Of a stretch of DNA of 64,000 nucleotides, positions 14,671-35,256 are shown one piece after another. The stretch is from an uncultured Gammaproteobacteria bacterium (GTDB lineage: Bacteria > Patescibacteriota > Patescibacteriia > SG8-24 > DYFX01), in contig CAYNUS010000001.1 of assembly GCA_964400625.1 (NCBI GenBank), positions 116,606 through 180,605 on the forward strand. The letters are read 5' to 3'. Numbering within the stretch: position 1 is the first letter of the stretch; the number at the start of each line of letters is the position of its first letter. Under the pieces are notes generated by a model that saw only the letters and a list, made by a program, of their open reading frames with translations, did not search any database and was not told where the DNA came from. The position numbers and the translations under genes are program-made.

Positions 14671-16260
14671 CTATTCCTTTCCAGATTCGGCGCTTTTGCG
14701 CATCGGCAGGTCGGAGGCGACCCAGGCCGGCTTGTCGATCCTGGTGAAATCGATGGGATCGGTCTCGGTCTTGCCGTAGCCGGGCTTGAGCGAGATCAGG
14801 TAGTACTCCCCCGGCCCGACGTGGAAGCTGTAGCGCCCCTCCGCGTCGGTGAGCTTGGATTCGAGGACCTTGTGGTACGGGAGCGAAAGGATGCGGACGA
14901 CGGCGCCCTTGAGCGGCTTGCGGGTGTCGATGTCGTAGACGGTCCCCTGCGACTTCGGCGTCGCCGGTTCCGCCAGGCGCTTGAAGAGCTGGTAGAGGAA
15001 GAGCTGGACGAGGAAGACGATCAGCATCGGCACGCCCGGCGTGACGGCCAGCGCGACGAGGCCGAGCGCGGGACCCGCCGCGGCCAGGGCCTTGCGGAGC
15101 GCCTTCTTGTTGCGGTCGGAGAGCAGCACCTTGGCTTCGGCCGCCGTCTCGAACGCGGGGTCCATCGGCACGTTGACCGTCAGCGTCTTGCCGCCTTCCG
15201 TCACCTGGATGAGGTTGCCGTGGTAGACGTCCGTATACGGCCCGTCATCGGCGACGTCCGCGACCGAAGCGGCCGGGAACGTGAAGCCCGGCTTCACGGC
15301 TTCGAGGCGGTAGCTGCCCGCCGGCGGCGTGAAGGCGAAGCGCCCGTCCTTGTCGGTGACCTTCGTGGCGATCGGACGGTTGGTGCCGGCTTCGACGAGG
15401 CGGATGGTGGCGAGGTCGATCGGGACCTTCGTGCCGGCGTGATAGACGACGCCCCAGCCCTGGCGCGTGCGGCGCGTGAGGAAGAGGTACGGCTGGGCGA
15501 GGACGAGGAGCAGGAACTGCCCGGCGTTGGCGAGCGGAAGCGCGGTCGCGAACGCGGCCAGGAATCCGGCGATGGAACCGGCGACGGCGACCGGCGCGAC
15601 CACCGCCTTGTTGGCGGCCTGCACGTCGTCGCGTTCGGCGACCTGGCGCGCGAGCGCGGCCGTCTCCTGGGCGGTGCCGAGCGCGGCGGCGACCTCTTCG
15701 GCGGACGGCACGTACGCGCGGAGCTGGGCGAACGCGGAGACGCCGCTCGCGCCCGCCTCCTCGCCGAGCACGCCGGCGTCCGTCAGGAGGTGCGGGCCTT
15801 CGGCGAGCGAGCCCGTCGGATATTCGAGCGCGAAGGTCACCTCGTAGCTCGGGCAATCCTCCGAGCACAGGCTGCCGTCGCGCTCTTTCGAGCGGTACAG
15901 GTACGGCAGGCCGTTCGGCAGGGCGTTGAACGGGACGTTCAGGAGGTAGATGGCGCCGCGCTCGCCGCCGATCGGCGTGATGCCGGCGTCCGAGATGACC
16001 TTCGCCTCGTCGGAACCGAGGACGAGTCCCGCGCTCGGCGCGTCCGGATAGCTGCCGTGCTGCTCGAAATACAGCTCGATGGCGTTGTAGAGCGTGCGGA
16101 TGTCGGAGACGCGCTTGGCGTCGCGCGCCTTGCCGCGCACGAGCGAATACGACGTCATGCCCGCCACGGAGAGCAGGCCGATGATGGTCGTCGTGATGAG
16201 GAGCTCGATCAGCGTGAAGCCCCTTTTCCCGGACGCGGCGTTTTTTTCGGATACGCGCAT
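14671..16260 (-). CDS. Large type IV pilin-like protein with CarboxypepD_reg-like repeats
   Basis: Class III signal MRVSEKNAASGKRG|FTLIELLITTTIIGLLS; repeated Ig-like segments (TKVTDKDGRFAFT..GSYRLEAVKPGF; GAVVRILS..DAEGRYSFHVGPGEYYL). Start trimmed from track ORF 16992 to ATG 16260. Confidence 0.8.
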   Translation of the reverse strand: MRVSEKNAASGKRGFTLIELLITTTIIGLLSVAGMTSYSLVRGKARDAKRVSDIRTLYNAIELYFEQHGSYPDAPSAGLVLGSDEAKVISDAGITPIGGERGAIYLLNVPFNALPNGLPYLYRSKERDGSLCSEDCPSYEVTFALEYPTGSLAEGPHLLTDAGVLGEEAGASGVSAFAQLRAYVPSAEEVAAALGTAQETAALARQVAERDDVQAANKAVVAPVAVAGSIAGFLAAFATALPLANAGQFLLLVLAQPYLFLTRRTRQGWGVVYHAGTKVPIDLATIRLVEAGTNRPIATKVTDKDGRFAFTPPAGSYRLEAVKPGFTFPAASVADVADDGPYTDVYHGNLIQVTEGGKTLTVNVPMDPAFETAAEAKVLLSDRNKKALRKALAAAGPALGLVALAVTPGVPMLIVFLVQLFLYQLFKRLAEPATPKSQGTVYDIDTRKPLKGAVVRILSLPYHKVLESKLTDAEGRYSFHVGPGEYYLISLKPGYGKTETDPIDFTRIDKPAWVASDLPMRKSAESGKE

Positions 16261-16865
16261 AGGCGTGCGATGGGACAGGCGTAGCAGCGGGGTCGCCCGG
16301 GGATGCAGACGTTGCGGCCGAACTGCACGAAGACGCGGTTCACGTGCAGCCAGAGGTCCTCCGGGATGAGGCGCATGAGCGCCGTCTCCGTCTTCCCGAC
16401 GTCCGTCGTGCGGACCCAGCCCAGACGGTTGGCGATGCGGTGCACGTGCGTGTCGACGGCGATGGCGGGAACCTTGAAAGCATAGCACAGGACGCAGTTG
16501 GCCGTTTTCCGCCCGACGCCCGGCAGCGCCACGAGCTCCTCGCGCGTCCGCGGCACCTTCCCTCCGTAGTCGCGCATGAGGATCGCCGCGATCCCTTTCA
16601 TCGCGCGCGCCTTGGCGCGGAAGAGGCCGATCTCGGAGAGCGGCTTCTCGATGTCGGACGCCTTGGCGGCGGCGAGGTCGGCGAGCGTCGGGAACTTCGC
16701 GCGGAGCTTCGGGTAGACCTTCATCACCTGCTCGTCGCGCGTGCGCGCCGAAAGGACCGTCGCGAGGAGCACGTCCTCGGGACGGTCGAGCTCGACGGCC
16801 CCCTTGCCGGGAAACCCGCGCTTCAGCGTGTCGATCACTTTCCGGACCGCGGAGGCTTTTGGCAT
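16209..16865 (-). CDS. nth: Endonuclease III (Nth) DNA glycosylase/AP lyase
   Basis: HhH-GPD motif LPGVGRKTANCVL and C-x6-C-x2-C-x5-C [4Fe-4S] cluster. Start trimmed to ATG 16865. Overlaps the pilin gene by 52 bp. Confidence 0.9.
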   Translation of the reverse strand: MPKASAVRKVIDTLKRGFPGKGAVELDRPEDVLLATVLSARTRDEQVMKVYPKLRAKFPTLADLAAAKASDIEKPLSEIGLFRAKARAMKGIAAILMRDYGGKVPRTREELVALPGVGRKTANCVLCYAFKVPAIAVDTHVHRIANRLGWVRTTDVGKTETALMRLIPEDLWLHVNRVFVQFGRNVCIPGRPRCYACPIARLCAYPKKTPRPGKGASR

Positions 16866-17675
16866 GTCGGGCAATAGACGGCGCCGCGCTGGGCGACCCA
16901 GATCTTCTTGAGCTTCGCGCCGCAGCGGCGGCAGGACTTCCCATCGCGGCCGTAGACCCAAAGGTGCGGCACGTTGCCGCCCTTCTCGCCATAGAGGTCG
17001 CGATAGTTGTCGGACGATGAGCCCAGCCGCTTCACGGAAGCCTTGAGCGATTTCAGCGCGCCTTCATAGACGCCCTTCAGTTCCTTTTCCGAAAGCGAGC
17101 CCACCGTCCGCTCCGGGTGGACCTTGCCGTACCAGCACGCCTCGTCGGCGTAGATGTTGCCGATGCCCGCGATGCACGACTGTTCCATGAGGAGCGGCTT
17201 GATCTTCTTCGAAGGGCGGCTCGTCACGCACATCGTGAAGCGCTTGAACGTGAAGGACGGATCGAGCGGTTCGGGGCCATAGCCTTCCGTATCGAAAATC
17301 TCCTTCTCGACGTCCGCCGTCTTCAGGACCTTCAGGAACCCGAACTTACGGACATCCTCGAACCAGAGGTCCTGCTTCTTGTCGAGATGGAACACGACGT
17401 GCGCGTGCTTGCCGGGCGCCTCCCCCGCTTTCTTGAGCAGGTACGAACCCGTCATCTTGAGATGCGTGACGAGCGTGAGGCCGTTCGAGAGGTCCGCGAG
17501 CAGGAGCTTGGCGCGGCGGCGGAACGCCTTGAACGTCGCCCCGGCGAGCGCGTCGAGGGCTTTCGGCGACGGCTTGATGCGCCCGCCGAAACGGACGTCG
17601 ACGCCGAGGATCTTCCGCCCGGCGAGCGCCTTTTCCATCTGCCGCCGCAAGGTTTCCACTTCGGGTAGCTCGGGC
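16835..17675 (-). CDS. mutM: Formamidopyrimidine-DNA glycosylase (MutM/Fpg)
   Basis: N-terminal MPELPEVE and C-terminal zinc finger CRRCG...CPTCQ. Start trimmed from track ORF 19231. Confidence 0.9.
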
Positions 17676-17707
17676 ATATCGTGGCCAGTGTAGTACAATG
17701 TCGCCGT

Positions 17708-18736
<1,029 letters not shown>

Positions 18737-18793
18737 CTTGCCTCCGCGGACGTCCGGTGCTGGAATGGGGCCAGCACCTTGAAGGAGGCGCCC

Positions 18794-19294
18794 ATGACCG
18801 AAGCCAAGACCCGCGACCTCATGGAGGTCGTCGAGGATCTCGAACGCCGCTTGCCGCCCGACGACGCCCTGCGCGCCGTGACGAACGCGCTGCGCGAATG
18901 CGACGCGGAGCTCGAGGAGCACGTCATCCTCGGCGCCGCGCGGAAGCCGCCCCTCACCTGGACGCGCTTCATCGCGCTCGGGAACGTCGCGGGCCGCCCG
19001 CATCCCAGCTATGGCATCTACCCCGGCGTCGTCGATGACGACGACCGCGCCGAGCTCCGCCGCGTCGAGGAGATCCTGAAGCGCCGCAAGGTCGCGATGT
19101 TCCTCGTCGAGGATATCCTGAAGCTGCGCCCGAGCGGCATCGCCACCGCCGCGCTCGCCCTCTACGGCGAGGACGCCGACGGCGCCGCCGTACTGGTCAT
19201 CTGCCGGCACCCGGACGTCACGCTCCCCCAAGCCGTCTGCCTCATCCTCGCCGCCGTGATGAGCGCGGCCGAAGACCAGGTCCGCAGGAACTGA
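18794..19294 (+). CDS. Hypothetical acidic protein, member 1 of a tandem three-gene paralog family
   Basis: GAAGGAGG RBS before ATG 18794. C-terminal ...LVICRHPDV is shared with the two downstream paralogs (FAVYRHPDV, ALFRHPSLD). Confidence 0.6.
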   Translation: MTEAKTRDLMEVVEDLERRLPPDDALRAVTNALRECDAELEEHVILGAARKPPLTWTRFIALGNVAGRPHPSYGIYPGVVDDDDRAELRRVEEILKRRKVAMFLVEDILKLRPSGIATAALALYGEDADGAAVLVICRHPDVTLPQAVCLILAAVMSAAEDQVRRN

Positions 19295-19295
19295 A

Positions 19296-19350
19296 CCCGA
19301 AGCGCCGCTTCGGGTTTTTCATTGACACGGACGCCGCGAAGTGCTACCAA
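19296..19350 (+). promoter_or_regulatory. Terminator (CCCGAAG-cgccg-CTTCGGG + T5) fused to TTGACA-17-TACCAA promoter cassette
   Basis: Hairpin plus T-tract at 19296-19320; -35 at 19322-19327; -10 at 19345-19350. Confidence 0.5.
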
Positions 19351-19379
19351 GCCCGTACGCACCTTCAAGGAGGGATGTC

Positions 19380-19892
19380 TTGAAACATCCGCTGGACGCA
19401 GAGGAGACCTACCTGCTGGCGAACCGCCGGTTCCCCGACGACGGCGACCTCGCCGCCTTCAACCTCATCTACGAGATCCGGAACGGCCTGCTCGTGCCGA
19501 CCGACCCCGATGCGGTGCCGGACGGCGAGGCGAAGCTGGTCGGCATCGTCGGGTACCTCGATCTCGGCGATGAGTACTGGATCATGCAGACGCTCGGCAC
19601 GCCCGACGACGCCGACGCCCTGATGCGCGCGATGGAGGAGCGCATCCTCATGCTTCCCGACGCGACGGACGAGGAGCGCGAGGCCGTGCCGACGATCACG
19701 CAGGAGTTCCCCACCGCCATCGGCGCCATGGGCGCCTGGCGCACGCCCGACGGCGCCACCCGCTTCGCCGTCTACCGCCACCCCGACGTCGAGCCGCACC
19801 ACGCCCACGACGTCCTGAAGGGCGTCATCGCGGAGGCCGAAGCCAAGCGCGCGGGCGCCTCGGCGCCTTCGAAGACCATGGTCGAGAACTGA
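19380..19892 (+). CDS. Hypothetical acidic protein, paralog 2
   Basis: TTG start 7 nt after AGGAGG. LANRRFPDDGDLAAFNLIYEIRNG aligns with paralog 3 LANMFFPDDGDLALFNLVIEVMNG. Confidence 0.6.
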   Translation: MKHPLDAEETYLLANRRFPDDGDLAAFNLIYEIRNGLLVPTDPDAVPDGEAKLVGIVGYLDLGDEYWIMQTLGTPDDADALMRAMEERILMLPDATDEEREAVPTITQEFPTAIGAMGAWRTPDGATRFAVYRHPDVEPHHAHDVLKGVIAEAEAKRAGASAPSKTMVEN

Positions 19893-19949
19893 CCCCCGGA
19901 CCTCGTTCCGGGGTTTTTCGTTGACGCGGCGCGCCGAGCGTGGTCAACT
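19893..19949 (+). promoter_or_regulatory. Second terminator (CCCCGGA-cctcgt-TCCGGGG + T5) fused to TTGACG-17-TCAACT promoter cassette
   Basis: Same architecture as 19296-19350 with a different sequence. Confidence 0.5.
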
Positions 19950-19974
19950 GCAGGCTGACCTTTCGGAGGTGCCC

Positions 19975-20469
19975 GTGAAGCGTTTCGAAGCCGACGACGC
20001 GTACCGTCTCGCCAACATGTTCTTTCCCGACGACGGCGACCTCGCCCTCTTCAACCTCGTCATCGAGGTGATGAACGGCAAGCTCCCCTACGAGGTCATC
20101 GACGGCCCCGCCGAGGTGGTGGAAGCCGCCGGCACGGACCTCGCCGCCGCGGTCGGGATGGCCACGATCGGCCAATCCCCCTGCCGCATCAGCTGGGTCT
20201 TCGACCAGGACCACGCCGACAAGAAGGAGGTCCTCATGGACCTCGTCCGCGGCCTCGCGCTGACGCCGCAAGCGAAGGAGCTCCTGGACCTCGAGCGTCC
20301 GCCCTTCACGCTCGCGGCGCTCGCCGCCTGCGAAGGCGAGGACGGGCGCTTCGCCTACGCGCTCTTCCGCCACCCGTCGCTCGACGCGGAGCAGGCGCGC
20401 GTGATCGTCCGCGCCGCGTTCCCGGACGAGGAGCCCGAAGCGGACGAGGATCCGCCCGCCAAGAACTGA
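19975..20469 (+). CDS. Hypothetical acidic protein, paralog 3
   Basis: GTG start 5 nt after GGAGG; homologous to paralog 2. Confidence 0.55.
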   Translation: MKRFEADDAYRLANMFFPDDGDLALFNLVIEVMNGKLPYEVIDGPAEVVEAAGTDLAAAVGMATIGQSPCRISWVFDQDHADKKEVLMDLVRGLALTPQAKELLDLERPPFTLAALAACEGEDGRFAYALFRHPSLDAEQARVIVRAAFPDEEPEADEDPPAKN

Positions 20470-20500
20470 AAACCGCCCCCGTTCCGGGAGCGGTCTTTTA
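20470..20500. terminator. Bidirectional terminator between paralog 3 and tgt
   Basis: Hairpin ACCGCCCCG-ttc-CGGGAGCGGT flanked by A-run and T-run. Confidence 0.5.
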
Positions 20501-21658
20501 TTCGACGATCCAGCTCCGCTTGAACTCCAGGAACCGGTCCTCGAGGATGGCGGCGCGCATGCGGCGCATGAGATCGAGCAGGAAGTGCAGGTTATGGATG
20601 GTGGCGAGGCGGAAGTACGCGAGCTCTTCGGTCTTGAAGAGATGCCGCAGGTACGCGCGCGTATGGCGCGTGCAGGTGGAACAGGCGCATTCCTCGTCGA
20701 TGGGGCGCGTGTCGCGCTCGAAGACGGCGTTGCCGATCTCGATGCGGTACTTCTTCGCGCGGCCGGCCGCGCGGTCGAAGAGCGCGCCATTCCGGGCGGT
20801 GCGCGTCGGCGAGACGCAGTCGAACATGTCGACGCCCGCCTCGACGACGTCGAAGAGGTCTTCCGGCGAGAGGCCGACGCCCATCGTGTAGCGCGCCTTG
20901 TCCTCCGGCATCGCGCCCCGGATCCAACCCAGGATCTCGCGCGTCTTGGCCATGTCGTAGCCGACCGATTCGCCGCCGATGGCGAAGCCGTCGAACGGAC
21001 GGGAGGCGATGAAGTCCGCCGACGCCCGGCGGAGTTCCTCATGCACGCCGCCCTGGACGATGCCGAAGAGCTGCTGCTTGAAGACCGGAGCGTCCGTCTT
21101 GTCCTTAAAGGCTTCGAGGCAGCGGTCGGCCCAGCGGTGCGTGCGCTCCATCGCGGCGCGCGCCTCGTCGAGCGAGGCGGCGTCAGAGGTGCACTGGTCG
21201 AAGGCCATGATGATGTCGGGGGCCAGCTTCTGCTGGACGCGGATGGCTTCCTCCGGCGTGAAACGGTGCTTCGAACCGTCGAGATGCGAGGTGAAGGTGA
21301 CGCCGTCCTCGTCGATCTTCACGAGCGAGCCGGTCGACGCCTTCTTGGCACCGAGCGAGAAGACCTGATAGCCGCCGGAGTCGGTCAGGATGGCGCGGTC
21401 CCACTTCTGGAACTTGTGGACGCCGCCGAGCGCCTTCACCGCGTCCTCGCCCGGGCGCAGGTGCAGGTGGTAGGTGTTGTTCAGGATGATCTCCGCGCCC
21501 AGCGCTTCCATGTCGGCGGCGTCGAGCGACTTCACCGTGGCTTGCGTGCCGACCGGCATGAAGACGGGCGTCAGCACGTCGCCGTGGTCGGTATGCAAAA
21601 CCCCCGCGCGGGCGCGCGAGTCCTTGCTCGTATGGACGTGGGTGAAGTTCTTGGACAT
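20498..21658 (-). CDS. tgt: Queuine tRNA-ribosyltransferase Tgt
   Basis: Zinc site CACSTCTRH, catalytic region DSGGYQ; full length 386 aa. Confidence 0.92.
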   Translation of the reverse strand: MSKNFTHVHTSKDSRARAGVLHTDHGDVLTPVFMPVGTQATVKSLDAADMEALGAEIILNNTYHLHLRPGEDAVKALGGVHKFQKWDRAILTDSGGYQVFSLGAKKASTGSLVKIDEDGVTFTSHLDGSKHRFTPEEAIRVQQKLAPDIIMAFDQCTSDAASLDEARAAMERTHRWADRCLEAFKDKTDAPVFKQQLFGIVQGGVHEELRRASADFIASRPFDGFAIGGESVGYDMAKTREILGWIRGAMPEDKARYTMGVGLSPEDLFDVVEAGVDMFDCVSPTRTARNGALFDRAAGRAKKYRIEIGNAVFERDTRPIDEECACSTCTRHTRAYLRHLFKTEELAYFRLATIHNLHFLLDLMRRMRAAILEDRFLEFKRSWIVE

Positions 21659-21691
21659 GACACGCCATCATGGACGAAAAAACGCCCGCGG

Positions 21692-22111
21692 TCAAGCGGA
21701 CGTCGCGAGATGCGCCTTGATGGCCGCGAGCGCTGCAGGATTGATGAAGTCGCTGTCGAGCTCGTCGGGGCGCTTCCATTCCCACGCCCCGAACTTCTCC
21801 GGCTCCATGTTCACGGGCTCCTGCGAGCTTTCGGCGACGAAGACGTGGAGGACGTCGCCTTCGAAGGCGCCTGGGACGGTCCCGAGGCCCGCGATCACCC
21901 GCAGGTCCGTGAGACCGACCTCTTCGCGCGCCTCGCGGCGCATGGCGTCTTCAGGCGTCTCGCCGGGTTCGCAGCGGCCGCCCGGCAAGGTCCAGACGGA
22001 GATCTCCTTCCATTTTTCCGCGGTGTAGTGCCGCAGACCGACGAGGATGCGGCCTTCGCGCAGGACGGCCGCGACGGCGCAATCTTTTTCCTTCGGTTCC
22101 GGAATCGCCAT
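21692..22111 (-). CDS. NUDIX hydrolase
   Basis: Nudix box GGRCEPGETPEDAMRREAREEVGL. Start trimmed from track ORF 22513 to ATG 22111. Confidence 0.85.
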   Translation of the reverse strand: MAIPEPKEKDCAVAAVLREGRILVGLRHYTAEKWKEISVWTLPGGRCEPGETPEDAMRREAREEVGLTDLRVIAGLGTVPGAFEGDVLHVFVAESSQEPVNMEPEKFGAWEWKRPDELDSDFINPAALAAIKAHLATSA

Positions 22112-23004: not shown

Positions 23005-23526
23005 CTAGAGGGTCGGAGCGAGATACTTCTCAACCAGGGTCTCGTACTCCTCATAAATCTTGGGGTCGATTTTCCAACCGCCTTCGTTCATCATCGGGTG
23101 ACAGGCCAAGGTCCCGTTCTCAGCAAGATATGGAGCATCAGCAACTTGGAAAAATGGTTTCTGCGTGGAATTTACGAAGACGACCTTCGCATTCCAAAAA
23201 CTACCGATCTTTTCGAGTCGCGCTCGATCTTTTTTATGAGGAAGGCCATGCATTCGGAACTTCACCTCAACGAAAATCGATTCTCCAGAATCTGTAATCA
23301 CGATAAAGTCTGGAATAGATCGGATGCGCTCGCCAGCATCACTGTATCTATCAAAAATATTCTTGATCTGCGTCAGGTTTTGAAGAATCGCCTCATAACC
23401 AAAGCGGTATACGGTGTTGCCTGATTTTTTCAGCAACTCTTCAACCAACGTTTCAGCCATACGACCCTTGAGCACTGATTCGGGGTCGAAGTTGCTTTCA
23501 CTCTTGCTGACGTAATCCTTCGTCAT
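23005..23526 (-). CDS. PD-(D/E)xK nuclease-fold protein (Hjc/YraN-like core with ~80-aa C-terminal extension), horizontally acquired
   Basis: Real start MTKDYVSK at ATG (rc) 23524-23526. Core AETLVEELLKKSGNTVYR...IPDFIVITDSGESIFVEVKFR matches the E...PD...(D/E)xK arrangement. Local GC about 46% versus about 68-70% in flanks. The track ORF 24948 extension is an antisense-of-gpmI artefact. Confidence 0.75.
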   Translation of the reverse strand: MTKDYVSKSESNFDPESVLKGRMAETLVEELLKKSGNTVYRFGYEAILQNLTQIKNIFDRYSDAGERIRSIPDFIVITDSGESIFVEVKFRMHGLPHKKDRARLEKIGSFWNAKVVFVNSTQKPFFQVADAPYLAENGTLACHPMMNEGGWKIDPKIYEEYETLVEKYLAPTL

Positions 23527-23537
23527 ATACCTACGAC

Positions 23538-25109
23538 TCAAATCAACGGCCTCCCCGTCATATCCTGCGGCTGAGGAATCCCCATGATGCGGAGCACCGT
23601 CGGCGTGACGTCGGAAAGCATCCCGACCGGGGGCGAGAGGCTCAAGTCCCCTCCCACCATTTCCTGCGCTTCGCCGGCCATGCCTTCGAACTGGCGGCCG
23701 ATGACGATGAGCGGGACGGGGTACGTCGAATGTTCCTTGTCGATGGAACCGGTCTGGAGGTTCACGACTTCCTCGGCGTTGCCGTGGTCGGCGGTGACGA
23801 CCATGGCGCCGTCCTTGGCGAGCACGGCGTCCGCGATCTTGCCCACGCATTCGTCGACGACCTCGGCGGCTTTCTTGGTGGCCTCGAGGTTTCCGGTATG
23901 CCCCACCATGTCGCCGTTGGCGAAGTTCACGGCGATGAGGTCGTAGGTACCCGCGTCGATCTCCTTCAGGATGCGGTCGGTGAGCTCGCGCGCGGACATC
24001 TCCGGCTGCTGGTCGTACGACGGCACCTTCGGCGACGGCACGATGGCGCGGTCCTCGCCCGGATACGGATCTTCCTTCATGCCGTTCAGGAAGAACGTCA
24101 CGTGCGCGTACTTCTCCGTCTCGGCGATGTGCAGCTGCTTCATCCCCGCGTCGGAGACGACCTTGGCGAGGCAGGTGGAGATGGGCTGGGGCGGGAAGGC
24201 GACCTCGGCGGGGAGATCCTTCTCGAACTCCGACATCGTCACGAACTTCAGCTCGCGCATGTACGGCCGCTCGAACTTGTCGAAGCTCGGCAGGACGAAG
24301 GCCTTCGTGAGCTCGCGGGCGCGGTCCGGGCGGAAGTTGAAGAAGATGACGGAGTCGCCGTCCTTGATGCTGCCGACGGGCTGGCCGCCTTCGGTGATGA
24401 CGGTCGGCACGAACTCCTCGTCGTAGACCTTGGCTTCGTAGGAGGCCTTGATGGCGGCGATCGGGTCGGTCGCGGTCGCGTCGGCCTTGCCGTCGACCAT
24501 CGCGCGGTACGCCTTCTCGACGCGGTCCCAGCGGTTGTCGCGGTCCATCGCGTAGAAGCGTCCGGAGAGCGAGGCGACCTTGCCGACGCCGTTCTGCCTC
24601 ATGCGCTCCATCGCGCGGCCGACGAAGTCGACGCCCGCGTTGAAGGTCGTGTCGCGTCCGTCGAGGATGGCGTGCAGGAAGAGTTCCTTCACGCCGCCGG
24701 CCTTGGCCATGTCGAGGAGCGCGAGGAGATGCTCGAGCGAGGCGTGGACGTTGCCGATCGAGGTGAGGCCGACGAGATGCACCTTGCCGCCGTTCAGCTG
24801 GGCGTGCTCGAAGGCGCCGAGGATGACACGGTTCCTCGCGAACTCGCCGCTCTGGATGGAGCGGTTGATGCGCGGGAGGCTCTGGTAATACACCTTGCCG
24901 GCGCCGATCGTGAGATGGCCCACTTCGGAATTGCCCATCTCGCCCCACATGAGGCCGACCTCTTCGCCCGAGGCGAGGACGGTCATGGCGGGATATTTGG
25001 CGGCGAATTCGCGGAGGCGCGGCGTCTCGGCCAGCGCGAGCGCGTTTCCGGAATCCGGCGGAGCGACGCCCCAGCCGTCGAGGATGGCGAGCACGATGGG
25101 TTTGGCCAT
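23538..25109 (-). CDS. gpmI: 2,3-bisphosphoglycerate-independent phosphoglycerate mutase, copy 1
   Basis: MAKPIVLAILDGWG..., full-length iPGM; GGAGG RBS. Confidence 0.92.
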   Translation of the reverse strand: MAKPIVLAILDGWGVAPPDSGNALALAETPRLREFAAKYPAMTVLASGEEVGLMWGEMGNSEVGHLTIGAGKVYYQSLPRINRSIQSGEFARNRVILGAFEHAQLNGGKVHLVGLTSIGNVHASLEHLLALLDMAKAGGVKELFLHAILDGRDTTFNAGVDFVGRAMERMRQNGVGKVASLSGRFYAMDRDNRWDRVEKAYRAMVDGKADATATDPIAAIKASYEAKVYDEEFVPTVITEGGQPVGSIKDGDSVIFFNFRPDRARELTKAFVLPSFDKFERPYMRELKFVTMSEFEKDLPAEVAFPPQPISTCLAKVVSDAGMKQLHIAETEKYAHVTFFLNGMKEDPYPGEDRAIVPSPKVPSYDQQPEMSARELTDRILKEIDAGTYDLIAVNFANGDMVGHTGNLEATKKAAEVVDECVGKIADAVLAKDGAMVVTADHGNAEEVVNLQTGSIDKEHSTYPVPLIVIGRQFEGMAGEAQEMVGGDLSLSPPVGMLSDVTPTVLRIMGIPQPQDMTGRPLI

Positions 25110-34570: not shown

Positions 34571-35194
34571 TCAGTCGGAGGCCGTGAAGGTGCAGCCTTC
34601 GTGCGGCGAGAGGCGCAGGACCGCGAGGTCCTCGTCGCGCAGCGCGTAGGCGTGATGGTCGTGGAGCGTGATGCCGTAGAGCCCGCGGTTGATCATCGGG
34701 TTCATGAGCGCCGTGCCGCAGACCGGTCCGGCCTCGGGATGCGCGGGGACGTCGGGGCCATCGCAGTCCGTCGGCACGTGGTGCCAGATGCCGAGCTGGT
34801 GCCCGACCTCGTGGGCGATCGTCGGCCAAAGGATGTCTTCGGAGATCGGCGTGCCGCCGAACTTCCGGAGGCAACCGATCATGAGGACGATCTCGCCGCC
34901 GACCCAGGCGCGTCCGAGCGCGTAGTTCCCGTCGGCGTCTTCCTCGCAGGCGTCCGTGCCGGCGCGGATGCGGATGAGCGCCTCGAGCGGATCGTCGACC
35001 TGCGCGCAGAGCACGCCTTCCGGGCGCCAAGCCTCGCAGGCCTCGCGCGCGAGCGTGGCCGGGAGCTCCGGGTGCGGCTCGATCCAGAAGGTCGCGGTGC
35101 GGAACTCCGACGGTTCGGCCTCGTAGAGGTCGTACGACGGGATATCGTCGCCGCAAGCGGCGAGCGCCGAAAGGAACAGGAGCGTCCGGTGCAT
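34571..35194 (-). CDS. Secreted lipoprotein, mini-metzincin zinc metalloprotease (snapalysin-like)
   Basis: Lipobox LSALAACG; HEVGHQLGIWHH (HExxHxxGxxH) and Met-turn ALMNP. Confidence 0.75.
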   Translation of the reverse strand: MHRTLLFLSALAACGDDIPSYDLYEAEPSEFRTATFWIEPHPELPATLAREACEAWRPEGVLCAQVDDPLEALIRIRAGTDACEEDADGNYALGRAWVGGEIVLMIGCLRKFGGTPISEDILWPTIAHEVGHQLGIWHHVPTDCDGPDVPAHPEAGPVCGTALMNPMINRGLYGITLHDHHAYALRDEDLAVLRLSPHEGCTFTASD

Positions 35195-35256
35195 GCGTCA
35201 CCTCCGCCTCGACGCTAGCGCGCCATGAGGCCCGCGTCAACGAAAAGACCGCCCGT

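What the first reader, a model, noticed from the sequence alone, without database searches (positions are those of the whole stretch)
18737..20500. Three tandem paralogous small acidic proteins, each in its own terminator-promoter cassette, between queA and tgt
Proteins at 18,794-19,294, 19,380-19,892 and 19,975-20,469 (about 165 aa, D/E-rich) are mutually homologous. Examples are LANRRFPDDGDLAAFNLIYEIRNG versus LANMFFPDDGDLALFNLVIEVMNG, and the shared C-terminal ...RHPDV block. Each intergenic spacer has the same architecture but a diverged sequence: GC hairpin, T5, then (A/G)TTGAC(A/G)CGG as -35, a 17-nt spacer, a weak -10, and SD plus ATG/TTG/GTG. This implies independent transcription of an old duplicated family. 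Tandem diverging paralog arrays are typical of immunity/antitoxin-like or regulatory protein families. The family is flanked by convergent queA and tgt, which is itself an unusual arrangement.
Basis: seen in the sequence. Interest (0 to 1): 0.55.

Follow-up and report, generated by a model that had tools for sequence, protein, structure and literature searches.

The report
Orphan paralog array between queA and tgt
Three real, anciently duplicated genes for small acidic proteins of an undescribed family with no known fold sit between the two queuosine tRNA-modification genes of a groundwater Patescibacteria (CPR) bacterium; their function is unknown, and the toxin-immunity reading finds no support.

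Summary
Three + strand genes (18794-19294, 19380-19892, 19975-20469) lie between convergent queA and tgt. They encode 164-170 aa acidic proteins that are homologous over their full length. P2 and P3 match at BLASTP E=5e-16. P1 is found by a profile built from P2/P3-type sequences only, at E=4e-5.

Each gene is followed by an intrinsic terminator and preceded by a TTGAC -35, a 17-nt spacer, a TGn-extended -10-like hexamer and a Shine-Dalgarno site. There is no terminator between queA and P1.

The family is tiny: about 60 clusters among 1.84 billion representative proteins. All hits traced to an organism are Patescibacteria (Paceibacter-like). In every locus with enough flank it fills the queA-to-tgt gap with 2-5 copies.

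dN/dS is 0.26-0.46, which indicates purifying selection. There is no adjacent toxin, secretion or mobile-element gene, so the immunity/antitoxin reading is unsupported.

Seventy of 101 members end in Asn on a disordered tail. This is unexplained.

My best reading is a set of non-enzymatic binding proteins that act together. A link to queuosine is possible but unproven.

The parts
17681..18736 (+). queA (S-adenosylmethionine:tRNA ribosyltransferase-isomerase). The likely true start is the ATG at 17708, because the orthologs are 342 aa.
   Evidence: Pfam PF02547, E=9.8e-122; ortholog lengths.
18738..18788 (+). queA-P1 spacer. Promoter-like TTGCCT (18738-18743), 17-nt spacer, TGGAAT (18761-18766) preceded by TGc, and SD GAAGGAGG (18781-18788). 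There is no T-run terminator. The predicted hairpin pairs CCUCC with the SD.
   Evidence: Sequence; fold -26.7 kcal/mol, z=-2.4. A TTGAC(C/T)-about 17 nt-T..AAT element lies at the same place in L005, L018 and L011.
18794..19294 (+). P1, type-A paralog: 166 aa, pI 5.15.
   Evidence: It is found by a type-B-only profile at E=4.4e-5. Orthologs are 60-89% identical.
19293..19320 (+). Intrinsic terminator after P1 (11-bp GC-rich stem followed by T5).
   Evidence: Fold -16.8 kcal/mol, z=-4.6.
19322..19374 (+). Promoter-like element and SD of P2: TTGACA (19322-19327), 17-nt spacer, TGc + TACCAA (19345-19350), SD AAGGAGGG (19367-19374).
   Evidence: The layout is conserved in L001, L004 and L005.
19380..19892 (+). 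P2, type-B paralog: 170 aa, pI 4.47, TTG start.
   Evidence: AlphaFold2 model has pLDDT 86 and pTM 0.82.
19894..19918 (+). Intrinsic terminator after P2 (7-bp stem followed by T5).
19921..19969 (+). Promoter-like element and SD of P3: TTGACG (19921-19926), 17-nt spacer, TGg + TCAACT (19944-19949), SD GGAGG (19965-19969).
19975..20469 (+). P3, second type-B paralog: 164 aa, pI 4.30, GTG start.
20470..20500 (.). Shared, probably bidirectional, terminator between convergent P3 and tgt: an A-run, a hairpin and a T-run that overlaps the tgt stop codon.
   Evidence: -16.1 kcal/mol, z=-3.1. The same arrangement occurs in L001 and L004.
20498..21658 (-). tgt (queuine/preQ1 tRNA-ribosyltransferase), inverted relative to the usual queA-tgt operon.
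   Evidence: Pfam PF01702, E=5.6e-143; orientation compared across 52 loci.

Best explanation
Shown. P1, P2 and P3 are expressed-gene-like members of one undescribed, clade-restricted protein family of about 165 aa. The proteins are soluble and acidic, with the topology alpha-alpha-beta-beta-alpha-(alpha)-beta-beta-alpha and a disordered C-terminal tail. The family arose by ancient tandem duplication inside the gap between queA and an inverted tgt. It is kept by purifying selection as 2-5 differentiated paralogs. The P2/P3-like type B is present in every array classified (10 of 10), and the P1-like type A in 8 of 10.

Inferred. In this genome each copy is transcribed on its own, because the duplicated unit carried its own -35/extended -10 promoter, SD and intrinsic terminator. 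I think the proteins are not enzymes and not toxin-immunity proteins. More likely they are binding modules that work as a set, possibly as homo- or hetero-oligomers. They would use the conserved N-x3-E (helix 2) and R-H/N-P (end of strand 4) positions and a flexible tail ending in Asn or Ser to engage a partner.

The partner is unknown. Because of the fixed position, the queuosine machinery (Tgt, QueA, or their tRNA or 7-deazaguanine substrates) is the first candidate. The position may equally be an inherited accident of where the first copy landed.
For: - Real genes: GC3 is 0.91-0.93, dN/dS is 0.26-0.46 against 0.13-0.23 for queA and tgt, the AlphaFold2 model is confident, and the exact products are in public gene calls.
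- One family.
- Restricted and rare: 28 clusters at 90% identity among 5.8 billion proteins; 61 hits (one a spurious repeat protein) at 50% identity among 1.84 billion; one species-representative genome, Candidatus Paceibacter sp..
- Always queA -> array -> <- tgt: window, L001, L004, L005, L011, L014, L017, L018, L098 and L099.
- Native composition.
- Conserved cassette layout.
- Hints that the copies act together: a single 328-aa ORF fuses two family domains between queA and tgt in L098. In L011, L013, L014 and L099 some adjacent members overlap or abut, which suggests translational coupling.
- No enzyme-like or known-family signal.
Against: - No direct evidence exists for any binding partner, oligomer or transcript.
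- The fusion protein rests on one short contig from one sample.
- L018 has two type-B copies and no type A, so a fixed A+B complex is not universal.
- Four invariant polar or charged positions could also be a catalytic or ligand site.
- afdb50 could not be searched.
Confidence: 0.45

Rival explanations
1. Queuosine-pathway accessory proteins. The paralogs would serve Tgt or QueA in a host-dependent bacterium that must scavenge 7-deazaguanine precursors, for example by binding or handing over preQ1 or queuine, or by regulating Tgt on its tRNA substrates.
For: The family lies strictly between queA and tgt in every locus with enough flank, across QueA identities of 58-89% and GC of 47-67%, while the outer neighbours change. 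No family copy lies elsewhere in the 64-kb window. The first array gene follows queA by 53-70 nt without a terminator.
Against: The queA-tgt linkage is ancestral and widespread, so one insertion between them would be inherited without any functional tie. The paralogs have their own promoters and terminators. There is no similarity to any known Que, YhhQ, QueT or Qng1 family and no preQ1 riboswitch. Bacterial Tgt and QueA need no accessory subunits (established knowledge). Multiple diverged paralogs are odd for a single-ligand carrier.
Confidence: 0.2
2. One reading: an array of immunity or antitoxin-like proteins that neutralise toxins, possibly delivered by competitors or by the host.
For: Tandem diverged small acidic paralogs with copy number 2-5. 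They evolve about twice as fast as their neighbours. The fold is novel, which is common among immunity proteins.
Against: No toxin, Rhs, CDI, T6SS or T7SS, or mobile-element gene is adjacent in any locus. There is no hit in Pfam immunity families or PADLOC. The chromosomal position is fixed and the type order is conserved (C-A-D-B or A-B-B). Composition is native. dN/dS is well below 1.
Confidence: 0.1
3. Nucleic-acid mimics. The strongly acidic P2 and P3 (net charge about -17) would imitate DNA or tRNA and inhibit or buffer a nucleic-acid enzyme such as a restriction enzyme, a glycosylase or Tgt.
For: pI is 4.3-4.5. The proteins are small. DNA glycosylase genes (nth, fpg) and tgt are neighbours.
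Against: No structural similarity to Ocr, ArdA, Ugi or other solved mimics. P1 is only mildly acidic. The conserved positions are not acidic patches.
Confidence: 0.07
4. C-terminal-Asn carrier or precursor. The conserved terminal Asn on a flexible tail would be the site of a chemical modification, by analogy with MccA adenylation or LysW-type carrier proteins.
For: Seventy of 101 members end in Asn and 17 in Ser, against an overall Asn frequency of 2.7%. None of 54 other window genes end in Asn. The codon is AAC or AAT and the stop is TGA, TAG or TAA. The tail is disordered.
Against: No MccB/E1-like, ATP-grasp or other modifying enzyme gene lies near any array. Types C and D and the low-GC lineage L099 lack the Asn. 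A 165-aa folded domain is unlike known precursors.
Confidence: 0.05
5. Not genes: chance ORFs in a high-GC spacer.
For: High-GC DNA makes long spurious ORFs.
Against: GC3 is 0.91-0.93, dN/dS is below 0.5, orthologs exist in at least 10 loci, the fold prediction is confident, and SD sites are present.
Confidence: 0.01

Closest known systems
Poly-immunity loci of polymorphic toxin systems (SUKH/SMI1-KNR4 and Imm families)
   Same: Tandem arrays of diverged small, often acidic, alpha/beta proteins with variable copy number.
   Different: No sequence or structural match. No toxin or secretion genes nearby. Fixed housekeeping location. Conserved orthologs under purifying selection.
The queA-tgt operon of typical bacteria (queA-tgt-yajC-secDF in E. 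coli)
   Same: The same two flanking genes remain neighbours.
   Different: Here tgt is inverted, and 1.2-2.8 kb of family genes is inserted. In 39 of 41 comparison loci the two genes are co-directional with a gap of 120 bp or less.
Small acidic secretion chaperones (type III class I, CesT/SycE-like)
   Same: Size, acidity and a mixed alpha/beta sandwich.
[not shown]
   Different: Half the length of an ATP-grasp enzyme. All scores are below significance. No profile hit to solved ATP-grasp sequences.
MccA-type peptides with an obligatory C-terminal Asn
   Same: Selected C-terminal Asn.
   Different: MccA peptides are 7-56 aa and sit next to an MccB adenylyltransferase gene. Here the proteins are folded, about 165 aa, and have no such neighbour.

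Membership tests
Polymorphic-toxin immunity proteins (SUKH/Imm) | Profile match to a described immunity family | tested here: not met
   No Pfam or NCBIfam hit for P1-P3, and no recurrent hit among 67 members.
Polymorphic-toxin immunity proteins (SUKH/Imm) | Adjacent or nearby toxin or secretion-system gene | tested here: not met
   Neighbours are nth, fpg, queA, tgt, NUDIX, an RF-1 domain gene and iPGM in all loci examined.
Polymorphic-toxin immunity proteins (SUKH/Imm) | Structural similarity to solved immunity proteins | tested here: not met
   [not shown]
Polymorphic-toxin immunity proteins (SUKH/Imm) | Strain-variable, rapidly diversifying content | tested here: inconclusive
   Copy number is 2-5, but the types are orthologous and ordered, and dN/dS is 0.26-0.46.
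Type II antitoxins | Paired toxin gene and a DNA-binding domain (RHH, HTH or AbrB) | tested here: not met
   No partner gene and no such domain.
Anti-phage defence systems (PADLOC) | Match to a defence-protein model | tested here: not met
   No hit for P1-P3. Only single-member noise-level hits among 67 members.
Queuosine pathway or salvage proteins | Conserved neighbourhood with tgt and queA | tested here: met
   All loci with enough flank have the layout queA -> array -> <- tgt.
Queuosine pathway or salvage proteins | Homology to a known Que, YhhQ, QueT or Qng1 family, or control by a preQ1 riboswitch | tested here: not met
   No Pfam or NCBIfam hit. No Rfam match in 17500-21900 at E of 5 or less apart from noise.
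Queuosine pathway or salvage proteins | Binding of 7-deazaguanine bases, or an effect on Tgt or QueA activity | not testable with these tools
   Needs biochemistry.
ATP-grasp (R2K_3) | Pfam score above the gathering threshold and a full ATP-grasp module of roughly 280 aa or more (length from my own knowledge) with its ATP/Mg-binding residues | tested here: not met
   [not shown]
MccA-like C-terminal-Asn precursors | C-terminal Asn | tested here: met
   Seventy of 101 members end in Asn.
MccA-like C-terminal-Asn precursors | Short peptide with an adjacent MccB (E1-like) gene | tested here: not met
   The domain is folded and about 165 aa. No E1-like gene is present in any locus.

The most novel reading that the evidence does not exclude
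The family is a new class of accessory factors for queuosine tRNA modification in host-dependent Patescibacteria. It would capture or deliver scavenged 7-deazaguanine bases to Tgt, or tune Tgt or QueA on tRNA. The selected C-terminal Asn/Ser tail would act as a docking or modification site.
Probability: 0.15. Interest if true: 0.7.

Novelty: categorically new. Interest (0 to 1): 0.45.

Why it matters
The family has a confidently predicted fold, no sequence relative in the libraries searched and no structural relative among solved or viral structures. It is preserved under selection in very small genomes, always between the two enzymes that install queuosine in tRNA.

If the position reflects function, it would point to an unknown step or control in queuosine salvage in ultra-small symbiotic bacteria. 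If not, it is still a clean example of how a self-contained promoter-gene-terminator cassette duplicates and diverges in a convergent-gene gap.

Two caveats apply. CPR genomes hold many orphan families, and nothing here yet shows what this one does. "Categorically new" therefore refers to the protein family and fold, not to a demonstrated new mechanism.

Tried and rejected
- Family libraries: Pfam, NCBIfam, PHROGs and PADLOC scans of P1-P3; Pfam, NCBIfam and PADLOC scans of 67 family members. No usable hit. Single-member hits to R2K_3, DpdH and others are at noise level once 67 queries are taken into account.
- PDB by sequence profile: nothing below E=0.27.
- P0030, a 5578-aa adhesin with 23 "stretches" in the representative search, is a spurious repeat hit.
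- Narrow hhalign of type A against type B gave only a C-terminal 43-column match. It was superseded by the wider type-B-only profile.
- AlphaFold2 of P1 with a type-A-only alignment gave pLDDT 44. That is too poor to serve as an independent fold test, although the order of secondary-structure elements resembles P2.
- The search for related loci with the broad alignments failed for lack of a conserved stretch. The GTDB scan gave one locus. The metagenome scan with QueA gave one further array locus, L018, plus 79 unrelated queA loci that served as the orientation control.
- Rfam scan for a preQ1 riboswitch: negative.
- Stop-codon read-through between copies: rejected, because P1 and P2 are in different frames.
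- A fixed A+B heterodimer core: weakened by L018, which has two type-B copies and no type A.
- Literature searches for queA/tgt or queuosine in Patescibacteria/CPR found nothing on this family.

Full report
**What is there.** Window 17681-18736 (+) is queA (Pfam PF02547, E=1e-121). Window 20498-21658 (-) is tgt (PF01702, E=6e-143). The two genes are convergent.

Three + strand ORFs lie between them:
- P1, 18794-19294, ATG start, 166 aa
- P2, 19380-19892, TTG start, 170 aa
- P3, 19975-20469, GTG start, 164 aa

Exactly these products are on record in public gene calls from a 259-kb NCBI contig. Their GC3 is 0.91-0.93, matching the other genes of this 66% GC genome. Local GC is native at 0.66-0.71. 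They are acidic, with pI 5.15, 4.47 and 4.30.

**Spacers.** Stable hairpins followed by T-runs come after P1 (-16.8 kcal/mol, z=-4.6), P2 and P3. The hairpin after P3 is flanked by an A-run and a T-run and abuts the tgt stop codon, so it is probably bidirectional.

Directly after the first two terminators comes TTTTTC(A/G)TTGAC(A/G)CGG. The pattern has two exact matches, both in the array, and a third match with one mismatch elsewhere in the window; 0.1 are expected by chance. A 17-nt spacer, a TGn-extended -10-like hexamer (TACCAA, TCAACT) and an SD follow.

There is no terminator between queA and P1. There is a TTGCCT-17-TGGAAT element there, and relatives have TTGAC(C/T)-about 17 nt-T..AAT at the same place.

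The layout is conserved in L001, L004 and L005 although the proteins have diverged. Independent transcription is therefore a reasonable inference, but it has not been measured.

**Distribution.** The family is very small:
- 9 clusters for P2
- 28 clusters for a family profile among 5.8 billion proteins
- 61 hits among 1.84 billion representative proteins, read exhaustively, of which one is a spurious repeat-protein hit

The only named sources are a "Patescibacteria group bacterium" and "Candidatus Paceibacter sp.".

Every locus with enough flank has queA -> array -> <- tgt. Every ORF in that gap belongs to the family:

| Locus | Copies |
|---|---|
| L001, L018 | 2 |
| window, L004 | 3 |
| L005, L011, L014, L017, L099 | 4 |
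| L013 (short contig) | at least 5 |
| L098 | one 328-aa ORF with two fused domains |

These loci span QueA identities of 58-89% and GC of 47-67%. By contrast, of 41 fetched loci from other bacteria with both genes, 39 have tgt co-directional just downstream of queA with a gap of 120 bp or less, mostly about 45 bp. None of the 79 loci with a more distant QueA (51% identity or less) carries a family member. No further copy exists in the 64-kb window.

**Paralog types.** Clustering gives the following:
- Type A (P1-like)
- Type B (P2/P3-like), present in all 10 arrays classified
- Types C and D, the C-A-D-B operon-like clade with 1-nt gaps or overlaps
- Several singletons

L018 has two type-B copies and no type A. 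dN/dS between orthologs is 0.26-0.46, against 0.13-0.23 for queA and tgt. This indicates purifying selection at roughly twice the amino-acid rate of the neighbours.

**Structure and family searches.** AlphaFold2 on P2 with 26 family sequences gives pLDDT 86 and pTM 0.82. The topology is alpha-alpha-beta-beta-alpha-(alpha)-beta-beta-alpha, and the tail (163-170) is disordered.

No significant structural neighbour was found:
- Foldseek against PDB: best E 0.098, TM about 0.2
- Foldseek against BFVD: best E 0.02

afdb50 was unavailable. There is no meaningful hit in Pfam, NCBIfam, PHROGs, PADLOC or PDB sequence, and no riboswitch.

**An unexplained feature.** Seventy of 101 non-redundant members end in Asn and 17 in Ser. 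The overall Asn frequency is 2.7%. None of 54 other window genes end in Asn. The codon is AAC or AAT and the stop is TGA, TAG or TAA. Selection therefore acts on the residue, which sits at the tip of a disordered tail. Types C and D and the low-GC lineage lack it. No modifying-enzyme gene is nearby.

**Interpretation.** The immunity/antitoxin part is not. There is no toxin, secretion or mobile context. There is no profile or fold match. The location is a fixed housekeeping one, the type order is conserved, the composition is native and selection is purifying.

My best reading, with confidence about 0.45, is a set of non-enzymatic binding modules that act together. The hints are the fused two-domain member and the translational coupling in sister lineages. 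The partner is unknown.

The queuosine machinery is the obvious candidate because of position (rival at 0.2). However, queA-tgt adjacency is ancestral, so one insertion into the gap left by the tgt inversion could explain the linkage without any functional tie.

As a protein family and fold this is new. As biology it remains an orphan, and CPR genomes have many such families, so interest is moderate.

Noticed in passing
window 23005-23538 (-): A 177-aa ORF sits in a 0.48-GC patch inside the 0.66-GC genome, between the RF-1-domain (ArfB-like) gene and iPGM. It has no Pfam hit. By eye the sequence has a PD-(D/E)xK-like 'IPDFIVI...VEVKF' motif. No gene of this size lies between the RF-1-domain gene and iPGM in L001 or L005. 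It is probably a foreign insertion.
   Followed up: partly
family-wide; window 19289-19291, 19887-19889, 20464-20466: The last codon of all three genes is Asn. Seventy of 101 family members end in Asn and 17 in Ser, on a disordered tail, with varying codon and stop codon. There is no explanation and no neighbouring modifying enzyme.
   Followed up: partly
window 18740-18789: The queA-P1 spacer folds at -26.7 kcal/mol (z=-2.4) so that CCUCC pairs with the P1 Shine-Dalgarno GGAGG. The inner hairpin GGUGCUGG/CCAGCACC is shared with L004. This may be a translational control or RNA-stability element. Covariation was not tested.
   Followed up: no
window 35232-35247 (-): A third copy of the T-run + TTGACGCGG junction (one mismatch) lies upstream of the gene at 34571-35194. 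This terminator/-35 junction therefore seems to be a general style of this genome and not specific to the array.
   Followed up: no
L098 573-1559: A single 328-aa ORF (P0055) holds two family domains joined by an acidic, Pro-rich linker, between queA and tgt. It is either a natural fusion of adjacent paralogs or an assembly error. It comes from one contig in one sample.
   Followed up: partly
L017 12090-13124: Reverse-transcriptase (RVT_1, weak hit) and bAvd genes, resembling a diversity-generating retroelement, lie about 3 kb downstream of tgt in this distant array-bearing locus.
   Followed up: no
window 14671-16290 (-): A type IV pilin-like protein (N_methyl motif) carries CarboxypepD_reg/SpaA-like domains. 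It is conserved upstream (pilin-like, nth, fpg, queA) in most related loci.
   Followed up: no
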